Origin: a virus | Strand: one strand, 5' to 3' | Length of the DNA stretch: 41,290 bases | UHGV virus genome: UHGV-0387525 | Notes under the pieces: generated by a model | The model's input: only the letters and a program-made list of their open reading frames with translations | What the model was told of the DNA's origin: nothing | Database searches by the model: none | In this document: piece by piece, positions 461 through 41,243 of the stretch | Numbering within the stretch: the stretch's first letter is position 1 | Layout of the letters: each line of letters starts with the position of its first letter | Made by a program: the position numbers and the translations under genes

Positions 461-1045
461 ATGAAAAGTATCCAGGACGTCCGCAGGCAAAATCTCAACG
501 ACTTGATCGACCGTGAATTCAATGGTGTTCAGACGCGGATGGCAGAAAAACTTGGAACTCAGGCAAATCTGGTAAACCGCTGGGCTCTTGGCAAGAAGGT
601 TATCGGCGACCAGGTTGCACGAAAAATTGAAGCGGCCGCCAATAAACCCCGTAACTGGCTTGATATTGATCGTTCGCTTTCTCAGGAGGGTTTTCAGCCT
701 GTCGGCCCGAGCGATATAGGTCAGCTGGCGGCTCACAACCTGGAACGCTGGATGAGCGAAAGCCGCGACCTTTCAACACAGGGAAAACTTCACCGCGCAT
801 CCGGCGTCGCCCAGGTGACAATCAGCCGCCTGTTAAACAATGAGGTCAGCGTTTCCATTTCCACCCTGGAGAATGTTGCATCCGCATTCGGGCGTCACGG
901 ATATGAACTACTGATTCACCCGCACGACCCTGCGACTATCAACTATGACCGCTCACGCTACGCATTGTTACCCGAAACCGAGAAAGCAAAGATCGAAAGT
1001 TACATTGAATTTGTCATCAACCAGAACGAAAAAAGCAAACAATAA
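461..1045 (+). CDS. tandem-HTH transcriptional regulator; candidate non-cleavable immunity repressor
   Basis: 194 aa with two XRE-like HTH segments (RMAEKLGTQANLVNRWALGKK and ASGVAQVTISRLLNNEVSVSI); no S24 peptidase-like motif seen; monocistronic, followed by intrinsic terminator; weak RBS. Confidence 0.5.
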   Translation: MKSIQDVRRQNLNDLIDREFNGVQTRMAEKLGTQANLVNRWALGKKVIGDQVARKIEAAANKPRNWLDIDRSLSQEGFQPVGPSDIGQLAAHNLERWMSESRDLSTQGKLHRASGVAQVTISRLLNNEVSVSISTLENVASAFGRHGYELLIHPHDPATINYDRSRYALLPETEKAKIESYIEFVINQNEKSKQ

Positions 1046-1117: not shown

Positions 1118-1164
1118 TTTTTTTAACTCATATCTATTGACACCAAACCAAATAAGCATAATTA

Positions 1165-3630: not shown

Positions 3631-3879
3631 ATGAAAGGTGCATTAGGTAAGAAAGAACTCCTGGCGGTGGTGCCACTGTCATGGAGCACTATCGACCGTA
3701 TGGAGCGCGCAGGGGAATTTCCTAAACGCTGGTATATCACCGATAAACGCTGCGCATGGAACCGTGATGAAGTTGAGCGTTGGCTTGATGAACGTCAGGC
3801 AGCAAGCCCGGCAGAGTTCCAGGGTAAAAAGCCTCCTGTTCAGCAACGTGTATATCGTCCCGTGAGCAACGCTGCATGA
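3631..3879 (+). CDS. AlpA/Xis-like small DNA-binding protein (putative excisionase or regulator)
   Basis: 82 aa; LSWSTIDRMERAGEFPKRWYI and W..DEVERW pattern typical of AlpA family. Confidence 0.6.
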   Translation: MKGALGKKELLAVVPLSWSTIDRMERAGEFPKRWYITDKRCAWNRDEVERWLDERQAASPAEFQGKKPPVQQRVYRPVSNAA

Positions 3880-4288: not shown

Positions 4289-4931
4289 TAAATACACACT
4301 AATCTATGCAGATCCACCCTGGGTATACCGGGACAAAGCCGCAGATGGTAATCGCGGTGCCGGTTTTAAATATCCGGTTATGAGTGTGCTGGATATCTGC
4401 CGCCTTCCTGTGTGGGATTTGGCCGATGAAAACTGTCTGTTGGCCATGTGGTGGGTGCCAACACAACCACTCGAAGCACTAAAAGTTGTTGAAGCCTGGG
4501 GATTCCGTCTGATGACGATGAAGGGCTTCACGTGGATAAAATGTGGTAGTCGACAACCAGATAAACTGGTTATGGGTATGGGACACATGACTCGCGCCAA
4601 TAGTGAAGATTGCCTGTTTGCGGTAAAGGGAAAACTACCTACGCGCATTAATGCAGGGATCGTTCAGTCATTTACCGCACCGCGGCTTGAGCATTCAAGA
4701 AAGCCAGATATCGTTCGTGAAAAACTTGTGCAATTATTAGGCGATGTTTCTCGCATTGAACTGTTCGCCAGCCAGACGTCTCATGGTTTCGATGTTTGGG
4801 GTAATCAGTGCGAAGACCCGGCAGTGCAACTACATCCTGGATACGCGTTGGATATTGGCGGATTAACAAATGCATTCAGCAATGCTCCGCTGTCACCAAC
4901 AGACAACCAGGGGCGGGAGCGTGCAGCATGA
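4281..4931 (+). CDS. MT-A70-family N6-adenine DNA methyltransferase
   Basis: DPPW motif ([10 protein letters not shown]); GGGGTGG RBS before ATG 4281; stop overlaps next start (ATGA). Confidence 0.8.
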
Positions 4932-5587
4932 ACCTATATCAACGCATCAATGGCGCTGACTGGTGCAATATCTTCGTCGTCGGCGATCTGCATGGGTGCT
5001 ACACACTGCTGATGAACGAACTCGACAAAGTTTCATTCGACCCGGCGCGCGATTTGCTTATTTCCGTTGGTGACCTTGTTGACCGCGGCGCTGAAAACGT
5101 CGAATGCCTGGATTTGATTACTATGCCGTGGTTCCGAGCTGTTCGTGGCAACCATGAGCACATGATGATTGATGGCTTATCAGAGCGTGGAAACGTCAAT
5201 CACTGGCTGCTTAATGGCGGTGGCTGGTTCTTTAATCTCGATTACGACAAAGAAATTCTGGCTAAAGCTCTTGCCCATAAAGCAGATGAACTTCCGTTAA
5301 TCATCGAACTGGTGAGCAAAGATAAAAAATATGTCATCTGCCACGCCGATTATCCTTGTGACGAATACGAGTTTGGAAAGCCAGTTGATCATCAGCAGGT
5401 AATCTGGAACCGCGAACGAATCAGCAACTCACAAGACGGGATCGTGAAAGAAATCAAAGGCGCGGACATGTTCATCTTTGGTCATACGCCAGCAGTGAAA
5501 CCACTCAAGTTTGCCAACCAGATGTATATCGATACCGGCGCAGTGTTCTGCGGAAATCTGACGCTTACCAAAGTCCAGGAAGGATAG
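4928..5587 (+). CDS. Ser/Thr protein phosphatase, lambda-phosphatase/PrpA-like
   Basis: metallophosphatase motifs GDLHG, GDLVDRG, GNHE; in-frame start at ATG 4928. Confidence 0.85.
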
Positions 5588-5589
5588 AA

Positions 5590-6846
5590 TTATTTATTAC
5601 TGTCTTCCATCCACTTCTCAAACTTCGACGGGGAGAACGGAATCAGATCCGTATGCTCCCCGTTAATCCAGGAATCAATCATATCGGCCCACTGCTGCAA
5701 CATGTAGGCGCGCTGTCTGGCGTATTCCGCTTTGTTATATACGGCGCGCACACCTTTCTGCTCGTGTGCCAGAGCCTTTTCAATCCAGTCTGAAGGATAA
5801 CCAGCCTCATGCAACAATGTACTGGCTGTACGGCGCATATCATGTACAGTAAAATCCTGAATATGCTCACCATCTTCATTTATTATTTTCACCGTTCTGT
5901 CGATCAGAGAGTTCAGCGCGGCATTAGATAATGGCTTCCGGAAATTGTAACGACCAGGAACCAGATATTCACTTCCACCAGCGCACATCTGCAACCCGAC
6001 TAATATATCCTGTGCCTGTTTAGGCAGGTAAATAACGTGCGCCCGACTTCCCTTCATGCGGTCTGAAGGAATTGTCCATGTCCATTTTTTAAAATCTATT
6101 TCATCCCACGTTGCATTGGTGAATTCTCCCTTACGAACCATGGTGATAAGCACCAGCTTTAAAGCCATTTTCATAGTGCCCATAGCACCAATGGCATCCA
6201 GCGTGCGGAAGAACAGGCCAATTTCTTCTGGTGTCAGTGTTCGCTCTCGTGGTTTAAATATGGCGATAGACGAAGGTTTAATGTCAGCCGCAGGATTAAA
6301 CAAACCATGACCACGGTCATTGGCGTGACGGTATACGCTGCTGATGATCTCCCTGGCCTGTACTGCTGTTGCCCGACCACCGCGTTCGACAATCCGGTCA
6401 CACAAATCACGAACCATTGATGTGGTAATTTCAGCCATCATTTTGTTGCCAAGAACCGGAAGTATGTCACGGTCGATCACCGCCTGCTTCATTGCGCGGG
6501 TACTGTCAGCCAGGATGACGTGTTTCATATAACTGTCGGTATGTACCGCAAACGTCTCGGCACCACGAATCTTTTTAATACCGTCACGTTTAGCCGCAGC
6601 CGGTGACTGGCCTGCTTTAAGCAGCTTCTTTGCAGCAATCAGTTCTTCTCGCGCTTCTGCCAGGCTGATACCGTCACGCCCATACTGCCCGATTACCAGT
6701 GTTTCGCGGCGACCGTTGATACGGTAGTCATAGCGAAACGAGACCGTGCCTGACGTAAGCACAGCTACATACAGCCCGTCACGATCGGAGACCTTGTACA
6801 GTTTGTCCTGCGGCTTGAGGTTTTTTAATTTTGTATCGGTAAGCAC
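5590..6846 (-). CDS. int: tyrosine-type phage integrase
   Basis: 418 aa; C-terminal catalytic region with HDMRRT and LAH...VRAVY motifs (R-H-R-Y pattern). Confidence 0.9.
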   Translation of the reverse strand: MLTDTKLKNLKPQDKLYKVSDRDGLYVAVLTSGTVSFRYDYRINGRRETLVIGQYGRDGISLAEAREELIAAKKLLKAGQSPAAAKRDGIKKIRGAETFAVHTDSYMKHVILADSTRAMKQAVIDRDILPVLGNKMMAEITTSMVRDLCDRIVERGGRATAVQAREIISSVYRHANDRGHGLFNPAADIKPSSIAIFKPRERTLTPEEIGLFFRTLDAIGAMGTMKMALKLVLITMVRKGEFTNATWDEIDFKKWTWTIPSDRMKGSRAHVIYLPKQAQDILVGLQMCAGGSEYLVPGRYNFRKPLSNAALNSLIDRTVKIINEDGEHIQDFTVHDMRRTASTLLHEAGYPSDWIEKALAHEQKGVRAVYNKAEYARQRAYMLQQWADMIDSWINGEHTDLIPFSPSKFEKWMEDSNK

Positions 6847-6888
6847 AATTCACCCGTATAGAAACCATTTTCATGACGGTATGAGAGT

Positions 6889-6903
6889 ATACCTTTAAGG
6901 TAA
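6889..6903. promoter_or_regulatory. operator-like palindrome ATACC-N5-GGTAA upstream of int
   Basis: atacctttaaggtaa; flanked by inverted copies of ATACCGTCA. Confidence 0.5.
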
Positions 6904-6957
6904 TACCGTCACCTGTACCGACGAAAAATATGGTGTAGAGTGAATAGAAATGAATAC

Positions 6958-6993
6958 ATAAAAACAAAAACCCTCTGTAAAAACAGAGGGTTA
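6958..6993 (-). terminator. rho-independent terminator ending the late/lysis operon
   Basis: 10-bp stem aaccctctgt/acagagggtt, loop aaaaa; on minus strand followed by TTTTTGTTTTT. Confidence 0.7.
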
Positions 6994-7163
6994 AATTAGT
7001 ATCTGAATAGGAATGAGTTGCTATGAGTTAGCTGTTAATCATTCCCACTCAATTATTTACGATAACCATAACCAATTGAGTGATAACATTTTTCCAAATC
7101 TCAATTTTTCCCGTACCGTTTTATATACCGTCACCGGAAATCAGTACCATGAAAAATGCCATG

Positions 7164-7646
7164 CTATCTGGTCAAAGTGTCGTACTGTTTTTCGCAGACT
7201 CTTCCGGCTTCGGCTGCCCGGTCAGCATACTCTGCCAGTTGTCTGTTTCTCTCGAGAGATTTGCTGAGCACGTCGGCAAGCAAAACTCCGGTGTCTGCGG
7301 CTGACGACCCAGCGCCGACAATGGCGTTATACTGCCTGAGCTGCTCACGGATGGCAAAGAGTTGTTGCTGCAACCGGCCAGCGCTAGCGGCAGCATCAAG
7401 AGCATCATTGCGCGCCTGGTCGATCCTCTGCTGAGCTTCACGTTCATTGGTCACTTTCTCCTGTTCGTAGTACTGACGAACTTTGTCTTCTTCGGCTTTG
7501 CGGTCTTCTTCCGCCTGAGCATACCCGGCATCGTACTGGCGACTGCCGTGTATATTCCAGGCAACAACTCCTGATATGACCAGAACAGCAAGCACTGCCA
7601 CGATAATCAACTGTTTCCAGTATGCTTTTACGAATGCCCAGATCAT
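7164..7646 (-). CDS. Rz-like i-spanin
   Basis: N-terminal TM helix, coiled-coil-rich body, C-terminal Cys; resembles lambda Rz; last gene of lysis cassette. Confidence 0.7.
7172..7408 (-). CDS. Rz1-like o-spanin lipoprotein embedded in Rz (+1 frame)
   Basis: lipobox LALAGC after short hydrophobic leader, Pro-containing mature region; exact start uncertain. Confidence 0.45.
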   Translation of the reverse strand: MMLLMLPLALAGCSNNSLPSVSSSGSITPLSALGRQPQTPEFCLPTCSANLSRETDNWQSMLTGQPKPEESAKNSTTL

Positions 7647-12544: not shown

Positions 12545-12564
12545 TACTGTATAAACATACAGTT
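12545..12564. promoter_or_regulatory. LexA (SOS) box
   Basis: TACTGTATAAACATACAGTT: CTGT-N8-ACAG, 17/20 match to TACTGTATATATATACAGTA. Confidence 0.7.
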
Positions 12565-12847: not shown

Positions 12848-12865
12848 AGGCCGCAAGAGCGGCCT
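12848..12865. terminator. bidirectional hairpin between convergent genes
   Basis: stem aggccgc/gcggcct, loop aaga; T-rich on both sides. Confidence 0.45.
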
Positions 12866-13592
12866 ATCGTTTCGCTTTGTGCTCGTCCCAGCACGTTTTG
12901 CACCATGCCATTAAGCCGTCCGCATTTTGATTATTAGGGTAAAAGCTGGTCCGTTTTCTGCGGACATTACAAATTGGGCACCACTTCATATGGCGTGTAT
13001 TCTTTGGGCCATCGAGACACCTTGCACACCACTTAGTCAATCCATCTGGATTTTTTGACGATTTCCGGAATTTGTCATATGGAAGGTTTATTCTGCATCG
13101 CAAACACTGCTTGCGGCCACTTGAAACTCTGTTAGCTGATTCTTCTTTTGGCGGCGATACAGAAGGTATTCTTGCTGGCTCTGATACTGCCTGAGGTGCT
13201 TTATTAGATGACTGAGACGATATGTCATCACCAGGGAATCTTCCATGATATGCCGGACGCGTTGACACTCCAGGTGGAAGCTCAGCTGTAAACGGCTTTG
13301 GCTGAATCAGTTGCCTCTCTTTTGCTAACTCCTGCTGTTTATAATATGTCTGGATTACCGCACTATCATAAGCAGGAGGTGCGGAAATATTAGGCGCATT
13401 ACCTCCAGTTTTTTGAAACTGAGTAGAGGTGTGTTCTATCACCTGTGTACGATTAATCGTTATCTCCCCATCTTCGGTCTTTATCGTTTTGTTATGATTA
13501 ACGACCGTACGATCAGAGATCTTAGTCTTGTTCTGGTTGATAACGTAAATAATCACCGCAACCACACCAACAACTATCCAGAAAACTTCCAT
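12864..13592 (-). CDS. membrane-anchored protein with tandem Cys-rich (zinc-ribbon-like) repeats
   Basis: 242 aa; N-terminal TM helix; two copies of C..C..N.DGL..WC..C pattern near C-terminus. Confidence 0.45.
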   Translation of the reverse strand: MEVFWIVVGVVAVIIYVINQNKTKISDRTVVNHNKTIKTEDGEITINRTQVIEHTSTQFQKTGGNAPNISAPPAYDSAVIQTYYKQQELAKERQLIQPKPFTAELPPGVSTRPAYHGRFPGDDISSQSSNKAPQAVSEPARIPSVSPPKEESANRVSSGRKQCLRCRINLPYDKFRKSSKNPDGLTKWCARCLDGPKNTRHMKWCPICNVRRKRTSFYPNNQNADGLMAWCKTCWDEHKAKR

Positions 13593-13989: not shown

Positions 13990-14685
13990 ATGACAGCTAC
14001 AAAAAGCACGTCCATTTTTTCTTTCGAATCCCAAGCCGATATACGGGTAATCGTCATTAATGGTGAGCCATGGTTTATCGCTTCAGATGTTTGTCGGGCT
14101 ATAGGCATAGCAAACCATCGAGATGCTGTTCGAAAACTTGATGATGATGAGAAGGGCGTCGCTTCAACCGACACCCCTGGCGGTGAGCAAGAATCGATCA
14201 TCATCTCCGAGTCAGGCCTCTACACACTGATCCTCCGCTGCCGCGACGCAGTGACACCAGGCACTATCCCCTACCGCTTTCGCAAATGGGTTACAGGTGA
14301 GGTTCTTCCTCAGATCCGCCGCACCGGAAGTTACATTAAAAACTCGCTCCCGCAGGAAGAACGCATAAAGATGGTTGCCGACCAGGTAGCCAACGCCACA
14401 GCATCAGCAGTAATGCAGGCGATGAAGATAGAGAACAAAACCTACAGCGCCCCACTGAAGCCCGGCTACCGCAGCCTGATTCATTCTCCGTCTGGTGTTC
14501 TCGGCCTGACGGAGAACTCACTGCTGATGAATTTGCTGAACCAGTTGCAGGAAGACGGGCACGATGTATCGGGCGCGGCGGCGGAGCTGACAACCATGTT
14601 TTGCTACATCGTTGGTGTGAGTAAATGCCTGCGTGATATCCAGACTCACGCGGAGTACATCAACGACAAAGCAGGATTCTTCTGA
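13990..14685 (+). CDS. ant: antirepressor with N-terminal Bro-N domain
   Basis: 231 aa; Bro-N-like N-terminus (IRVIVINGEPWFIASDVCRAIGI...ESGLYTLILRCR); C-terminal segment paralogous to 12584..12841. Confidence 0.75.
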   Translation: MTATKSTSIFSFESQADIRVIVINGEPWFIASDVCRAIGIANHRDAVRKLDDDEKGVASTDTPGGEQESIIISESGLYTLILRCRDAVTPGTIPYRFRKWVTGEVLPQIRRTGSYIKNSLPQEERIKMVADQVANATASAVMQAMKIENKTYSAPLKPGYRSLIHSPSGVLGLTENSLLMNLLNQLQEDGHDVSGAAAELTTMFCYIVGVSKCLRDIQTHAEYINDKAGFF

Positions 14686-41194: not shown

Positions 41195-41209
41195 TTACCT
41201 TTGAGGTAC
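41195..41209. promoter_or_regulatory. operator-like palindrome TTACC-N5-GGTAC
   Basis: ttacctttgaggtac between cro-like terminator and zinc-finger gene. Confidence 0.5.
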
Positions 41210-41220
41210 GAATAGATATG

Positions 41221-41243
41221 AAAAGACCGCCGGATGGCGGTCT
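41221..41243 (-). terminator. terminator after cro-like gene (across the circular junction)
   Basis: 8-bp stem agaccgcc/ggcggtct with 4-nt loop; on minus strand followed by TTTTC. Confidence 0.5.

What the first reader, a model, noticed from the sequence alone, without database searches (positions are those of the whole stretch)
6847..7163. Candidate attP and int control region
The 317-bp non-coding region upstream of int contains an operator palindrome flanked by inverted ATACCGTCA copies (6874-6882, 6903-6913), a third ATACCGTCACC at 7125-7135, and an inverted repeat CCCACTCAATT / AATTGAGTG (7046-7080). These could be integrase arm-type or core sites. Int carrying its own operator suggests direct repressor control of integration/excision.
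Basis: inference. Interest (0 to 1): 0.45.

Follow-up and report, generated by a model that had tools for sequence, protein, structure and literature searches.

The report
Phage attachment site next to integrase
This 317-base gap is the already published site where a phiV10/epsilon15-type E. coli phage recombines into the end of the host guaA gene, and it probably also holds the integrase gene's control elements, so it is real but ordinary.

Summary
The window is a Uetakevirus (phiV10/epsilon15 group). The gap is 99.7% identical to phage vB_EcoP_ZX5.

- **Core:** prophage junctions in 569 E. coli genomes, and a base-by-base attP/attB/attL/attR comparison, place the 17-bp core at 7037-7053 (AATCATTCCCACTCAAT). 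This is the last codons of guaA and the sequence published for ZX5, phiV10 and epsilon15.
- **Arm sites:** ATACCGTCAC is the Int arm-type motif. There are five exact copies within 810 bp and none elsewhere. The two gap copies at 6903 and 7125 are invariant in 8 phages. Its GACGGTA core clusters upstream of int in 32 relatives, down to 47% identity.
- **CACTCAATT/AATTGAGTG repeat:** the left arm lies inside the core. The right arm is only partly conserved and looks like an IHF-type site.
- **Palindrome 6888-6904:** it is a one-mismatch copy of TTACC-N5-GGTAA, annotated as the repressor site in epsilon15. There are 15 such sites against 0.73 expected, all intergenic. It lies between two arm sites and over a weak candidate int promoter.
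- **Not shown:** repressor control and Int autoregulation of int are plausible but untested.
- **Terminator 6969-6992:** it insulates int and copies the host terminator downstream of guaA.

The parts
5590..6846 (-). [quoted passage not shown]
   Evidence: Pfam hits are Arm-DNA-bind_3 (3.9e-20), Phage_int_M and Phage_integrase (1.4e-19). It is 99-99.8% identical to the ZX5 and phiV10 integrases.
6847..7163 (.). Non-coding gap between int and the Rz-like gene. It holds attP (P arm, core, P' arm) plus the int upstream control region.
   Evidence: It is 99.7% identical to the ZX5 gap. No Rfam match. The 8-phage alignment A1 shows blocks of invariant sequence.
7037..7053 (.). 17-bp common core AATCATTCCCACTCAAT. 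It is the reverse complement of the guaA 3' end (ATT GAG TGG GAA TGA tt).
   Evidence: Junctions in 569 genomes. Base-by-base attP/attB/attL/attR comparison. Published core for ZX5, phiV10 and epsilon15 (PMC9782041).
7044..7050 (.). Inferred 7-bp overlap (crossover) region CCCACTC. It is flanked by the imperfect inverted repeats AATCATT (7037-7043) and AATTATT (7051-7057), which are candidate core-type sites.
   Evidence: Inference from the sequence: 6 of 7 positions are complementary. Columns up to 7060 are invariant in all 8 phages although identity with attB stops at 7053. Not tested.
6903..6912 (+). P-arm arm-type Int site ATACCGTCAC. A degenerate tandem copy GTACCGACGA lies at 6915-6924.
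   Evidence: Invariant in 8 phages. The homologous 10-mer is annotated as integrase-binding in epsilon15. Klebsiella locus L021 has both tandem copies perfect, 12 bp apart.
6873..6882 (-). P-arm inverted arm-type site (ATACCGTCAT on the minus strand). It lies at about the predicted transcription start of int.
   Evidence: It is the least conserved of the gap's arm sites, with 1-2 changes in BUCT554, Tyrion and BUCT711.
7113..7134 (+). P'-arm arm-type sites: GTACCGTTTT (7113-7122) and ATACCGTCAC (7125-7134)
   Evidence: The 21-nt block TACCGTTTTATATACCGTCAC is invariant in all 8 phages. The 10-mer is annotated as integrase-binding in epsilon15.
6888..6904 (.). Repressor-type operator-like palindrome TATACC-TTTAA-GGTAAT. 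It has one mismatch to the core consensus TTACC-N5-GGTAA.
   Evidence: 15 such sites against 0.73 expected. They have the same form as the seven sites annotated 'repressor' in epsilon15. The half-sites are invariant and the 5-nt spacer varies in 8 phages and 10 prophages.
6886..6912 (-). Candidate int promoter: -35 GTGACG (6912-6907, inside the arm-type site), 15-nt spacer, -10 TATACT (6891-6886, inside the operator half-site)
   Evidence: Relaxed scan, 9 of 12 matches. The -10 reads TATAAT in epsilon15. The stricter scan found nothing. Inferred only.
6969..6992 (-). Intrinsic terminator: 10-bp stem followed by TTTTTGTTTTT on the minus strand. It stops late-operon transcripts in the phage and guaA transcripts in the prophage before they reach int.
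   Evidence: Annotated as a terminator in phiV10 and epsilon15. Its stem is the same as that of the K-12 terminator downstream of guaA.
7069..7081 (-). IHF-like site ACTCAATTGGTTA (one mismatch to WATCAANNNNTTR). A second one-mismatch match lies at 7047-7059 (+).
   Evidence: The homologous sequences are annotated as IHF sites in epsilon15. TAA and ATTGA are invariant. The consensus matches are not enriched genome-wide.
6941..7016 (+). Two copies of a 13-bp direct repeat, TGAATAGAAATGA (6941-6953) and TGAATAGGAATGA (7004-7016), one on each side of the terminator. Their function is unassigned.
   Evidence: Both copies are conserved across genera. One-mismatch copies lie next to operators at 1128-1140 and 41209-41221, giving 4 hits against 0.41 expected.
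6535..6677 (.). Arm-like motifs inside the int coding sequence: 6535-6548, 6578-6587 and 6668-6677
   Evidence: They account for three of the four longest invariant runs in the first 567 nt of int. 5 of 6 third-codon positions in the two 10-mers are invariant, against 41 of 189 overall. Two are annotated as integrase-binding in epsilon15. The copy at 6325-6334 is not conserved.
3631..3879 (+). AlpA-family gene, the candidate excisionase (recombination directionality factor)
   Evidence: Pfam Phage_AlpA, 3.1e-05, above its cut-off. Annotated as AlpA family in ZX5 and phiV10. Its role was not tested.
461..1045 (+). Rep, the immunity repressor presumed to bind the TTACC-N5-GGTAA sites
   Evidence: Full-length homologue of the SPC32H repressor, PDB 5D50 (E 3.5e-42). 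HTH_3 domain. Operator-type sites lie on both sides of the gene.

Best explanation
The gap is the attP of a phiV10/epsilon15-type podovirus, and the upstream control region of its integrase gene lies inside the P arm.

**Shown here**
- Recombination takes place in the 17-bp core 7037-7053, which is identical to the last codons of guaA.
- The prophage order is guaA - core - P arm - int ... Rz - P' arm - core - yfgI. guaA is left intact.

**Inferred: the recombination machinery**
- Int has an arm-binding N-terminal domain. It would bind the ATACCGTCAC-type sites on both sides of the core: 6873-6882, 6903-6924 and 7113-7134, and perhaps the conserved copies inside int.
- Its catalytic and core-binding domains would act at the core, probably AATCATT / CCCACTC / AATTATT.
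- IHF-like sites beside the core would bend the arms.
- The AlpA-family gene product would direct excision.

**Inferred: control of int**
- int reads away from the core, so any dedicated promoter must lie between the terminator (6969-6992) and the start codon.
- The best candidate has its -35 inside an arm-type site and its -10 inside a near-consensus repressor-type palindrome.
- Int would then repress its own promoter, as in KplE1 and P4. The immunity repressor Rep would silence int in the lysogen until the antirepressor removes it.
- The terminator shields int from late-operon read-through in the phage and from guaBA read-through in the prophage.
For: **Identity of the region.** The window is 96.7-98.9% identical to ZX5 and phiV10 over int-gap-Rz, and the gap itself is 99.7% identical to ZX5.

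**Junctions.** 569 of 5426 E. coli genomes hold split matches that meet at 7037-7053, next to guaA. attL, attR and the empty K-12 attB reconstruct exactly. The same core is published for ZX5 (PCR and Sanger sequencing), which also cites phiV10 and epsilon15 (PMC9782041).

**Arm sites.**
- The motif is strongly over-represented and clustered.
- The two gap copies at 6903 and 7125 are invariant across phages of four host genera.
- Int carries an Arm-DNA-bind_3 domain.
- GACGGTA/TACCGTC occurs 1-7 times within 450 bp upstream of int in 31 of 32 Int relatives, from 91% down to 47% identity. These include beta- and alpha-proteobacteria whose flanking sequence is otherwise unrelated.

**Operator.**
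- 15 sites against 0.73 expected. By my reading of the gene map all of them fall in intergenic gaps.
- They have the same form as the sites annotated 'repressor' in epsilon15.
- They lie on both sides of rep in 10 prophages of other genera.
- Rep is a homologue of the studied SPC32H repressor.
- The int-upstream copy keeps its half-sites while its spacer varies.
- Pantoea locus L024 carries such a site at a different position (-43) upstream of int.

**Other elements.** Terminator. Promoter candidate. Overlap of an int promoter with attL, and the resulting negative autoregulation, were shown experimentally for KplE1 intS and are described there as widespread (PMC2951348).
Against: - No promoter passes the standard sigma-70 scan in 6700-7300. 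The candidate has a short 15-nt spacer. In the upstream sequences printed, its -10 loses the final T in two prophages (L020 TATATC, L022 TATATG).
- The int-upstream palindrome always carries one mismatch in its int-proximal half-site (GGTAT instead of GGTAA), so it may bind weakly or not at all.
- Epsilon15's annotators did not mark it as a repressor site. They marked an RNase III site there instead.
- Rahnella locus L038 has Rep-type operators but no such site upstream of int. Scandinavium locus L018 has the site but no Rep homologue within 9 kb.
- The IHF matches each carry one mismatch, and such matches are not enriched genome-wide.
- No binding data were available. The SPC32H and epsilon15 papers that would define the operator are not in the library.
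Confidence: 0.85

Rival explanations
1. The arm-site/palindrome/arm-site block (6873-6912) acts as an RNA hairpin in read-through transcripts. It would be an RNase III processing site that controls int mRNA stability, as annotated in epsilon15, and not a DNA operator.
For: The minus-strand RNA 6920-6866 folds to -16.1 kcal/mol with z = -2.96, and 2 of 200 shuffles fold as well. The epsilon15 GenBank record marks the homologous 39 nt as an RNase III site.
Against: Changes in the left arm are not compensated in the invariant right arm: TGTCGCTAT in BUCT554, TGTCGGTAT in Tyrion and TGACGGTAC in BUCT711. The conservation pattern (fixed half-sites, free 5-nt spacer) is that of a dimer-bound DNA site. 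The same 15-mer recurs at 14 other intergenic positions without flanking inverted repeats. The terminator lies upstream, so little read-through RNA is expected.
Confidence: 0.12
2. The palindrome belongs to the recombination machinery. It would be a site for the AlpA-type excisionase, or a pair of truncated Int arm half-sites, since TACC/GGTA is shared with ATACCGTCA. On this view the repressor has no role at int.
For: It sits between two arm-type sites in the P arm, where lambda Xis and Fis bind (established knowledge). It overlaps the arm site by one base at 6903. Its left half, TATACC, contains the first five bases of the arm motif.
Against: The same TTACC-N5-GGTAA sequence is found at 14 other intergenic positions, including both sides of rep. 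Int relatives that lack Rep-type operators keep the arm motif but lack the palindrome: L023, L025-L027, L029 and L034.
Confidence: 0.15
3. int has no promoter of its own in the gap. It is expressed only by read-through or antitermination from the late lysis operon (or from guaA in the prophage), and the palindrome acts at most as a roadblock.
For: No consensus promoter was found. int is co-directional with holin, endolysin and Rz, and with guaA after integration.
Against: A strong, conserved terminator stands between those genes and int. Establishing lysogeny needs Int early, before late transcription (established knowledge of temperate phages). The candidate -10 is a perfect TATAAT in epsilon15.
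Confidence: 0.2

Closest known systems
attP of Escherichia phage vB_EcoP_ZX5, phiV10 and Salmonella phage epsilon15 (Uetakevirus), integrating at the 3' end of guaA
   Same: The 17-bp core is the same. The int-gap-Rz arrangement is the same. The gap is 99.7% (ZX5), 96.8% (phiV10) and 83.2% (epsilon15) identical. The 10-mers annotated as integrase-binding, the IHF sites and the terminator of the epsilon15 record are all present.
   Different: Nothing of substance differs. This window carries a different cargo gene next to int (a Ser/Thr phosphatase at 4808-5587). The palindrome 6888-6904 is not annotated as a repressor site in any of those records.
Phage lambda attP (arm-type sites P1, P2 and P'1-3, core C-O-C', IHF H1/H2/H', Xis sites)
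   Same: It is a site for a heterobivalent tyrosine integrase. Arm-type repeats lie on both sides of a short core, across about 260 bp (6873-7135). There are IHF-like sites next to the core and a likely 7-bp overlap region flanked by imperfect inverted repeats.
   Different: int reads away from the core rather than toward it, so the P arm doubles as the int upstream region. The target is the end of a protein-coding gene. The RDF candidate is AlpA-type and is encoded 1.7 kb beyond the far end of int, on the other strand. There is no sib-type element downstream of int.
KplE1 (CPS-53) intS/attL and phage P4 Pint: integrase promoters that overlap the attachment region and are repressed by Int and the RDF
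   Same: The geometry is the same: target gene, core, P arm with arm-type sites, then int in the same orientation. The integrase is P4-like with an arm-binding domain. Arm sites fall on the predicted -35 and +1 positions (PMC2951348; P4 from my own knowledge of Piazzolla et al. 2006).
   Different: The promoter and autoregulation are only predicted here. There is an extra repressor-type operator between the arm sites, which is not part of the KplE1 or P4 schemes. The target is guaA, not a tRNA gene.
Repressor (Rep) and antirepressor (Ant) immunity system of Salmonella phage SPC32H, with the sites annotated 'repressor' in epsilon15 (ATTACC-N5-GGTAAT)
   Same: Rep is a full-length homologue (E 3.5e-42). 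A Bro-N antirepressor gene is present at 13990-14685. The palindrome consensus is identical and is scattered at operon starts.
   Different: The int-upstream copy deviates in one half-site and is not among the seven sites annotated in epsilon15. Binding has not been shown for any site in this phage.

Membership tests
Uetakevirus guaA-specific attP (ZX5 / phiV10 / epsilon15) | Core sequence attgagtgggaatgatt present about 190 bp upstream of the int start | tested here: met
   An exact match lies at 7037-7053, 191 nt from the int start at 6846. The published sequence is quoted in PMC9782041.
Uetakevirus guaA-specific attP (ZX5 / phiV10 / epsilon15) | Prophage junctions at the 3' end of guaA, with the core duplicated at both ends | tested here: met
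   569 genomes show split matches. In strain WP4-S17-ESBL-03, attL and attR each hold the core, and together with K-12 attB they reconstruct attP.
Uetakevirus guaA-specific attP (ZX5 / phiV10 / epsilon15) | Near-identical flanking genes and gap sequence | tested here: met
   The gap is 99.7% identical to ZX5. Int is 99.8% identical to ZX5 Int over residues 1-413.
Lambda-type attP of a heterobivalent tyrosine integrase | Adjacent tyrosine integrase with a separate arm-binding N-terminal domain | tested here: met
   Pfam Arm-DNA-bind_3, Phage_int_M and Phage_integrase.
Lambda-type attP of a heterobivalent tyrosine integrase | Repeated arm-type sites, unlike the core sequence, on both sides of the core | tested here: met
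   ATACCGTCAC-type sites lie at 6873, 6903 (plus 6915), 7113 and 7125. The 6903 and 7113-7134 sites are invariant in 8 phages, while 6873 varies at 1-2 positions in three of them. The motif is retained with the Int clade across three proteobacterial classes.
Lambda-type attP of a heterobivalent tyrosine integrase | Sites for IHF or another bending protein between the core and the arm sites | tested here: inconclusive
   Only one-mismatch matches to WATCAANNNNTTR were found, at 7047-7059, 7069-7081 and 7073-7085. Such matches are not enriched genome-wide. The homologous sequences are annotated as IHF sites in epsilon15.
Lambda-type attP of a heterobivalent tyrosine integrase | Int binds the arm and core sites and catalyses attP x attB recombination | not testable with these tools
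   This needs EMSA or footprinting and a recombination assay. Integration of the 99.7%-identical ZX5 at this site is reported in PMC9782041.
KplE1/P4-type autoregulated integrase gene (promoter inside attL) | int is transcribed away from the core, so that its upstream region is the P arm | tested here: met
   The order guaA - core - P arm - int, all on one strand, is seen in attL.
KplE1/P4-type autoregulated integrase gene (promoter inside attL) | A mapped promoter whose -35, -10 or +1 overlaps Int binding sites | tested here: inconclusive
   The strict scan found none. The relaxed scan gave GTGACG-15-TATACT, which overlaps arm site 6903-6912 and places the start near arm site 6873-6882.
KplE1/P4-type autoregulated integrase gene (promoter inside attL) | Negative regulation of the promoter by Int and by the RDF | not testable with these tools
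   This needs reporter fusions with and without Int and AlpA.
Uetakevirus Rep operator (TTACC-N5-GGTAA) | 15-17 bp dyad matching the consensus of the sites that flank rep | tested here: met
   6889-6903 ATACCTTTAAGGTAA matches 9 of the 10 specified bases. The sites flanking rep in this window and in 10 other prophages share the consensus.
Uetakevirus Rep operator (TTACC-N5-GGTAA) | Half-sites conserved and spacer free among relatives; promoter-proximal intergenic position | tested here: met
   TATACC and GGTAAT are invariant, and the spacer reads TTTAA, TTTAG, TTTCG or GTAAT in the 8 phages. The site is present at -57 in 10 enterobacterial prophages.
Uetakevirus Rep operator (TTACC-N5-GGTAA) | Bound by Rep, with repression of the adjacent promoter | not testable with these tools
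   No binding data could be reached. Kim & Ryu 2013 and Kim et al. 2016 are not held in the library.

The most novel reading that the evidence does not exclude
The immunity repressor Rep binds the near-consensus operator 6888-6904. That operator lies inside the P arm, between two Int arm-type sites, and over the int promoter. In the lysogen, Rep would then both silence int and occupy attL. Excision would be gated directly by removal of Rep by the antirepressor. This is a third layer on top of the Int/RDF autoregulation known from KplE1 and P4, and it differs from the PL/N/sib scheme of lambda. The conserved one-base defect of the operator would be the price of sharing bases with the -10 box.
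Probability: 0.4. Interest if true: 0.4.

Novelty: already known. Interest (0 to 1): 0.17.

Why it matters
Little is at stake. The attachment site, its target (guaA) and its core sequence are published for near-identical phages. The arm-type, IHF and terminator features are already annotated in the epsilon15 record. The confirmation helps annotation in three ways:

- It shows that the window is the unintegrated (attP) form.
- It gives exact prophage boundaries.
- It explains why guaA stays intact and stays followed by a terminator after integration.

The one point that could add knowledge is the repressor-type operator between the arm sites. If Rep binds there, this phage group couples integrase supply, and perhaps attL accessibility, directly to the immunity switch. 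That would be a modest extension of the known schemes of integrase regulation.

Tried and rejected
- **Strict promoter scan of 6700-7300:** no sigma-70 site was found. Only a relaxed scan gave a candidate.
- **Rfam search of 6600-7400 at E up to 1:** only chance-level hits, all far below their gathering scores. A structured RNA gene is rejected.
- **IHF consensus:** only one-mismatch hits, and no genome-wide enrichment. These are kept as 'IHF-like' only.
- **Literature that would define the Rep operator and the epsilon15 and phiV10 attP experiments:** Kim & Ryu 2013, Kim et al. 2016 and Kropinski et al. 2007 are not held in the library. I tried no identifier for Perry et al. 2009; it is known here only from the ZX5 reference list. 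The operator assignment therefore rests on the epsilon15 GenBank annotation and on sequence statistics.
- **Search for phages with this Int but a different repressor, as a co-variation test:** the phage collection holds only Uetakevirus-type relatives. The genome scan gave partial help, but the loci with the palindrome at -57 form one clade, so the association is weak evidence.
- **Intragenic copy at 6325-6334:** not conserved, so it is rejected as a functional site.
- **The CACTCAATT/AATTGAGTG repeat as a pair of core-type sites:** rejected. Its arms are 19 bp apart, the right arm lies outside the attP/attB identity, and it is degenerate in epsilon15.
- **The 13-bp repeat TGAATAGNAATGA as a promoter element:** at the early-left promoter it overlaps a perfect TTGACA, but no matching -10 follows either copy in the gap. 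It is left unassigned.
Full report
**1. What the window is**

The region int-gap-Rz is 98.9% identical to Escherichia phage vB_EcoP_ZX5 and 96.7% identical to phiV10. It is about 83% identical to Salmonella phage epsilon15. All three belong to the genus Uetakevirus.

The integrase gene lies on the minus strand at 5590-6846, with a GTG start. The next gene on that strand is an Rz-like spanin at 7164-7646, followed by endolysin, holin and a tail fibre. The finding therefore covers exactly the 317-bp gap between the start of int and the end of the lysis cassette. The P arm, core and P' arm are contiguous, so the window shows the unintegrated form of the phage.

**2. Check of the observation**

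- TGACGGTAT lies at 6874-6882.
- ATACCGTCACC lies at 6903-6913 and at 7125-7135.
- The palindrome TACCTT-T-AAGGTA lies at 6890-6902.
- The inverted repeat is CACTCAATT 7046-7054 / AATTGAGTG 7074-7082. The stated coordinates were off by two bases at each end.

The motifs exceed chance.
- ATACCGTCAC with at most one mismatch gives 10 hits against 1.74 expected. All five exact copies lie in 6325-7134.
- The palindrome family gives 10 hits against 0.99 expected.
- Its core form TTACC-N5-GGTAA gives 15 hits against 0.73 expected.
- The 9-bp CACTCAATT inverted repeat is borderline on its own.

**3. Where the phage recombines**

A search of 5426 complete E. coli genomes found 569 with split matches. 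Window 6600-7053 is contiguous with guaA, and 7037-7400 lies at the other end of a prophage of about 40 kb.

I fetched attL and attR from one lysogen and the empty site from K-12 and compared the four sequences base by base.
- attP and attB share exactly 17 bp, AATCATTCCCACTCAAT (7037-7053).
- attL is the attP left arm joined to the attB right arm. attR is the converse.
- The core is the reverse complement of ATT GAG TGG GAA TGA tt, the last four codons and the stop of guaA. guaA therefore stays intact.

The ZX5 paper gives the same 17-mer as attP and attB, verified by PCR and Sanger sequencing. It states that the same sequence was shown for phiV10 and epsilon15 (PMC9782041). The main interpretation is therefore correct and already published.

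**4. Anatomy of the attachment site**

I aligned the gap from eight phages of Escherichia, Salmonella, Enterobacter and Klebsiella. The invariant blocks are:
- (a) 7038-7060, which is the core plus seven bases on the phage side;
- (b) GGTAATACCGTCA with TGTACCG just downstream (6898-6922);
- (c) TACCGTTTTATATACCGTCAC (7114-7134);
- (d) the two half-sites of the palindrome;
- (e) the terminator stem;
- (f) two copies of TGAATAGNAATGA.

Several lines of evidence mark the ATACCGTCAC motif as the Int arm-type site.
- Int has an Arm-DNA-bind_3 domain.
- The epsilon15 GenBank record annotates the homologous 10-mers as integrase-binding.
- A scan of one genome per species returned 47 loci encoding relatives of Int, and I examined 32 of them (91% to 47% identity). 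In 31 of the 32, GACGGTA/TACCGTC occurs one to seven times within 450 bp upstream of int. These include Chromobacterium, Rhodocyclaceae, Cupriavidus, Caulobacter and Phenylobacterium, whose flanking sequence is otherwise unrelated.
- The usual pattern is a tandem direct pair 12 bp apart plus an inverted copy 30-40 bp downstream. In this window the second member of each tandem pair is degenerate (6915-6924 and 7113-7122).

The site spans about 6873-7135. That is roughly -165 to +90 from the core centre, close to the size of lambda attP.

Inside the core, AATCATT and AATTATT are 6-of-7 inverted repeats that flank CCCACTC. This would give a lambda-like 7-bp overlap region. It would also explain why bases 7054-7060 are invariant although they are not shared with attB. 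This is inference only.

**5. The CACTCAATT / AATTGAGTG repeat**

The left arm lies in the core. The right arm lies 19 bp away, outside the identity with attB. It is degenerate in epsilon15 (TATTGAATT), and only ATTGA is invariant. On the minus strand it reads ACTCAATTGGTTA, one mismatch from the IHF consensus. The homologous sequence is annotated as an IHF site in epsilon15. I read it as an IHF-like site and not as a core-type site. Confidence is low, because one-mismatch IHF matches are not enriched genome-wide.

**6. The palindrome and control of int**

*Link to the repressor.*
- The epsilon15 record annotates seven ATTACC-N5-GGTAAT sites as repressor-binding.
- This window has 15 matches to TTACC-N5-GGTAA with at most one mismatch.
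- By comparison with the gene map, all 15 lie in intergenic gaps. Those gaps lie on both sides of rep, upstream of the tail-fibre gene, around the antirepressor gene, and upstream of terS, the portal operon and the replication genes.
- Rep (461-1045) is a full-length homologue of the SPC32H repressor whose structure is solved (E 3.5e-42).
- The same consensus lies on both sides of rep in ten prophages of other genera.

*The copy upstream of int.*
- It reads TATACC-TTTAA-GGTAAT at 6888-6904 and matches 9 of the 10 specified bases.
- Its half-sites are invariant while its spacer varies, both in the eight phages and in ten enterobacterial prophages, where it sits at -57.
- The Pantoea prophage L024 carries such a site at a different place (-43).
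- Int relatives without Rep-type operators lack it: L023, L025-L027, L029 and L034.
- There are two exceptions. L038 has the operators but no site upstream of int. L018 has the site but no Rep within reach.

*The candidate promoter.*
- On the int-sense strand the sequence reads GGTGACGGTAT TACCTTAAAGG TATACT CTC ATACCGTCA.
- A relaxed scan gives -35 GTGACG, a 15-nt spacer and -10 TATACT. The -10 is TATAAT in epsilon15.
- The -35 lies in arm site 6903-6912. The -10 lies in the deviant half-site of the palindrome. The predicted start lies in the inverted arm site.
- The candidate is weak. The strict scan found nothing, and two prophages lose the final T of the -10 (L020 TATATC and L022 TATATG, read).
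- Geometry nevertheless requires that any dedicated int promoter lie between the terminator and the start codon, and the palindrome sits in the middle of that stretch.

*Comparison with known systems.* The arrangement matches the KplE1/P4 type. There the int promoter overlaps attL, and Int and the RDF repress it (PMC2951348). Here there is an added repressor-type operator.

**7. The terminator**

A 10-bp stem followed by a T run on the minus strand lies at 6992-6969. It is conserved in all relatives. It stands between the lysis genes and int. After integration it stands between guaA and int. Its stem and A tract (AAAAACCCTCTGT..ACAGAGGGTT) are the same as those of the K-12 terminator that lies 26 bp downstream of guaA. 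The prophage therefore replaces the host terminator with a near copy, while the host copy moves to attR.

**8. The rival RNA reading**

The block folds as RNA to -16.1 kcal/mol with z = -2.96, and epsilon15 annotates an RNase III site there. Substitutions in the left arm are not compensated in the right arm. The fixed-half-site, free-spacer pattern points to a DNA site. I give this rival about 0.12.

**9. Intragenic motifs**

Within the first 567 nt of int, three of the four longest invariant runs across the eight phages contain arm-like motifs: 6535-6548, 6666-6677 and 6578-6585. In the two 10-mers, 5 of 6 third-codon positions are invariant, against 41 of 189 overall. By my own binomial estimate this has a probability of about 0.002. 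Both 10-mers encode the peptide R-D-G-I, so protein constraint explains part of this but not the synonymous positions. Whether they serve recombination or regulation is open. The copy at 6325 is not conserved.

**10. Verdict**

The site is already known, from experiments on ZX5 and reportedly on phiV10 and epsilon15. The arm-type and IHF assignments repeat the epsilon15 annotation, now backed by wide conservation. The repressor-type operator between the arm sites is a reasonable addition that appears not to be annotated, but it is untested and modest in scope. Interest is low.

Noticed in passing
window 6969-6992; L011 (E. coli K-12) about 26-50 nt left of the core: The phage terminator has the same stem and A tract as the host terminator between guaA and yfgI. 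The phage reads AAAAACCCTCTGTAAAAACAGAGGGTT and the host reads AAAAACCCTCTGTAGTAACAGAGGGTT. After integration the phage copy sits behind guaA and the host copy moves to attR. This may be an old capture of host sequence, or mimicry.
   Followed up: partly
window 343, 391, 1103, 1165, 6889, 12493, 13613, 13706, 14758, 32488, 35677, 35695, 39194, 39256, 41195: There are fifteen TTACC-N5-GGTAA sites (0.73 expected). By my reading of the gene map, all lie in gaps between genes at operon starts. The repressor of this phage group seems to act on nearly every transcription unit, not only on an immunity region.
   Followed up: partly
window 12547-12562: A near-consensus LexA box, CTGTATAAACATACAG, lies 40 nt from operator 12493. 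It is in the gap between the tail-fibre gene and the oppositely oriented operon that leads to the Bro-N antirepressor (13990-14685). This fits SOS control of the antirepressor, as I recall was reported for SPC32H.
   Followed up: no
window 6535-6548, 6578-6587, 6666-6677 (inside int): Arm-like motifs inside the int coding sequence are conserved at synonymous positions across eight phages. They account for three of the four longest invariant runs in the 5' third of the gene. Two of them are at the same codons (+171, +261) in relatives as distant as Tolumonas.
   Followed up: partly
loci L013-L051, 450 nt upstream of int: The 7-mer GACGGTA/TACCGTC clusters upstream of int in 31 of 32 relatives, down to 47% identity. 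These include beta- and alpha-proteobacteria. The arm-site specificity of this integrase clade is therefore very old and independent of the integration target.
   Followed up: partly
window 6941-6953 and 7004-7016; also 1128-1140 (-) and 41209-41221 (+): A 13-bp motif, TGAATAG(A/G)(A/T)ATGA, occurs twice in the P arm, on either side of the terminator, and both copies are conserved across genera. One-mismatch copies lie next to repressor-type operators at the early-left promoter, where it overlaps a perfect TTGACA, and upstream of the replication genes. That gives 4 hits against 0.41 expected. The binding protein is unknown.
   Followed up: partly
L018 (Scandinavium manionii) and L038 (Rahnella sp.): These are exceptions to the link between the operator and int. 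L018 keeps the palindrome at -57 but shows no Rep homologue or operators within 9 kb. L038 has Rep and operators but no matching site upstream of int.
   Followed up: no
window 12864-13592 (-): A 242-aa ORF has no convincing Pfam family (only a sub-threshold Stc1 hit). It sits between the tail-fibre side and the antirepressor, with two consensus operators just upstream (13613 and 13706). No ORF of that size is annotated at the corresponding place in ZX5.
   Followed up: no
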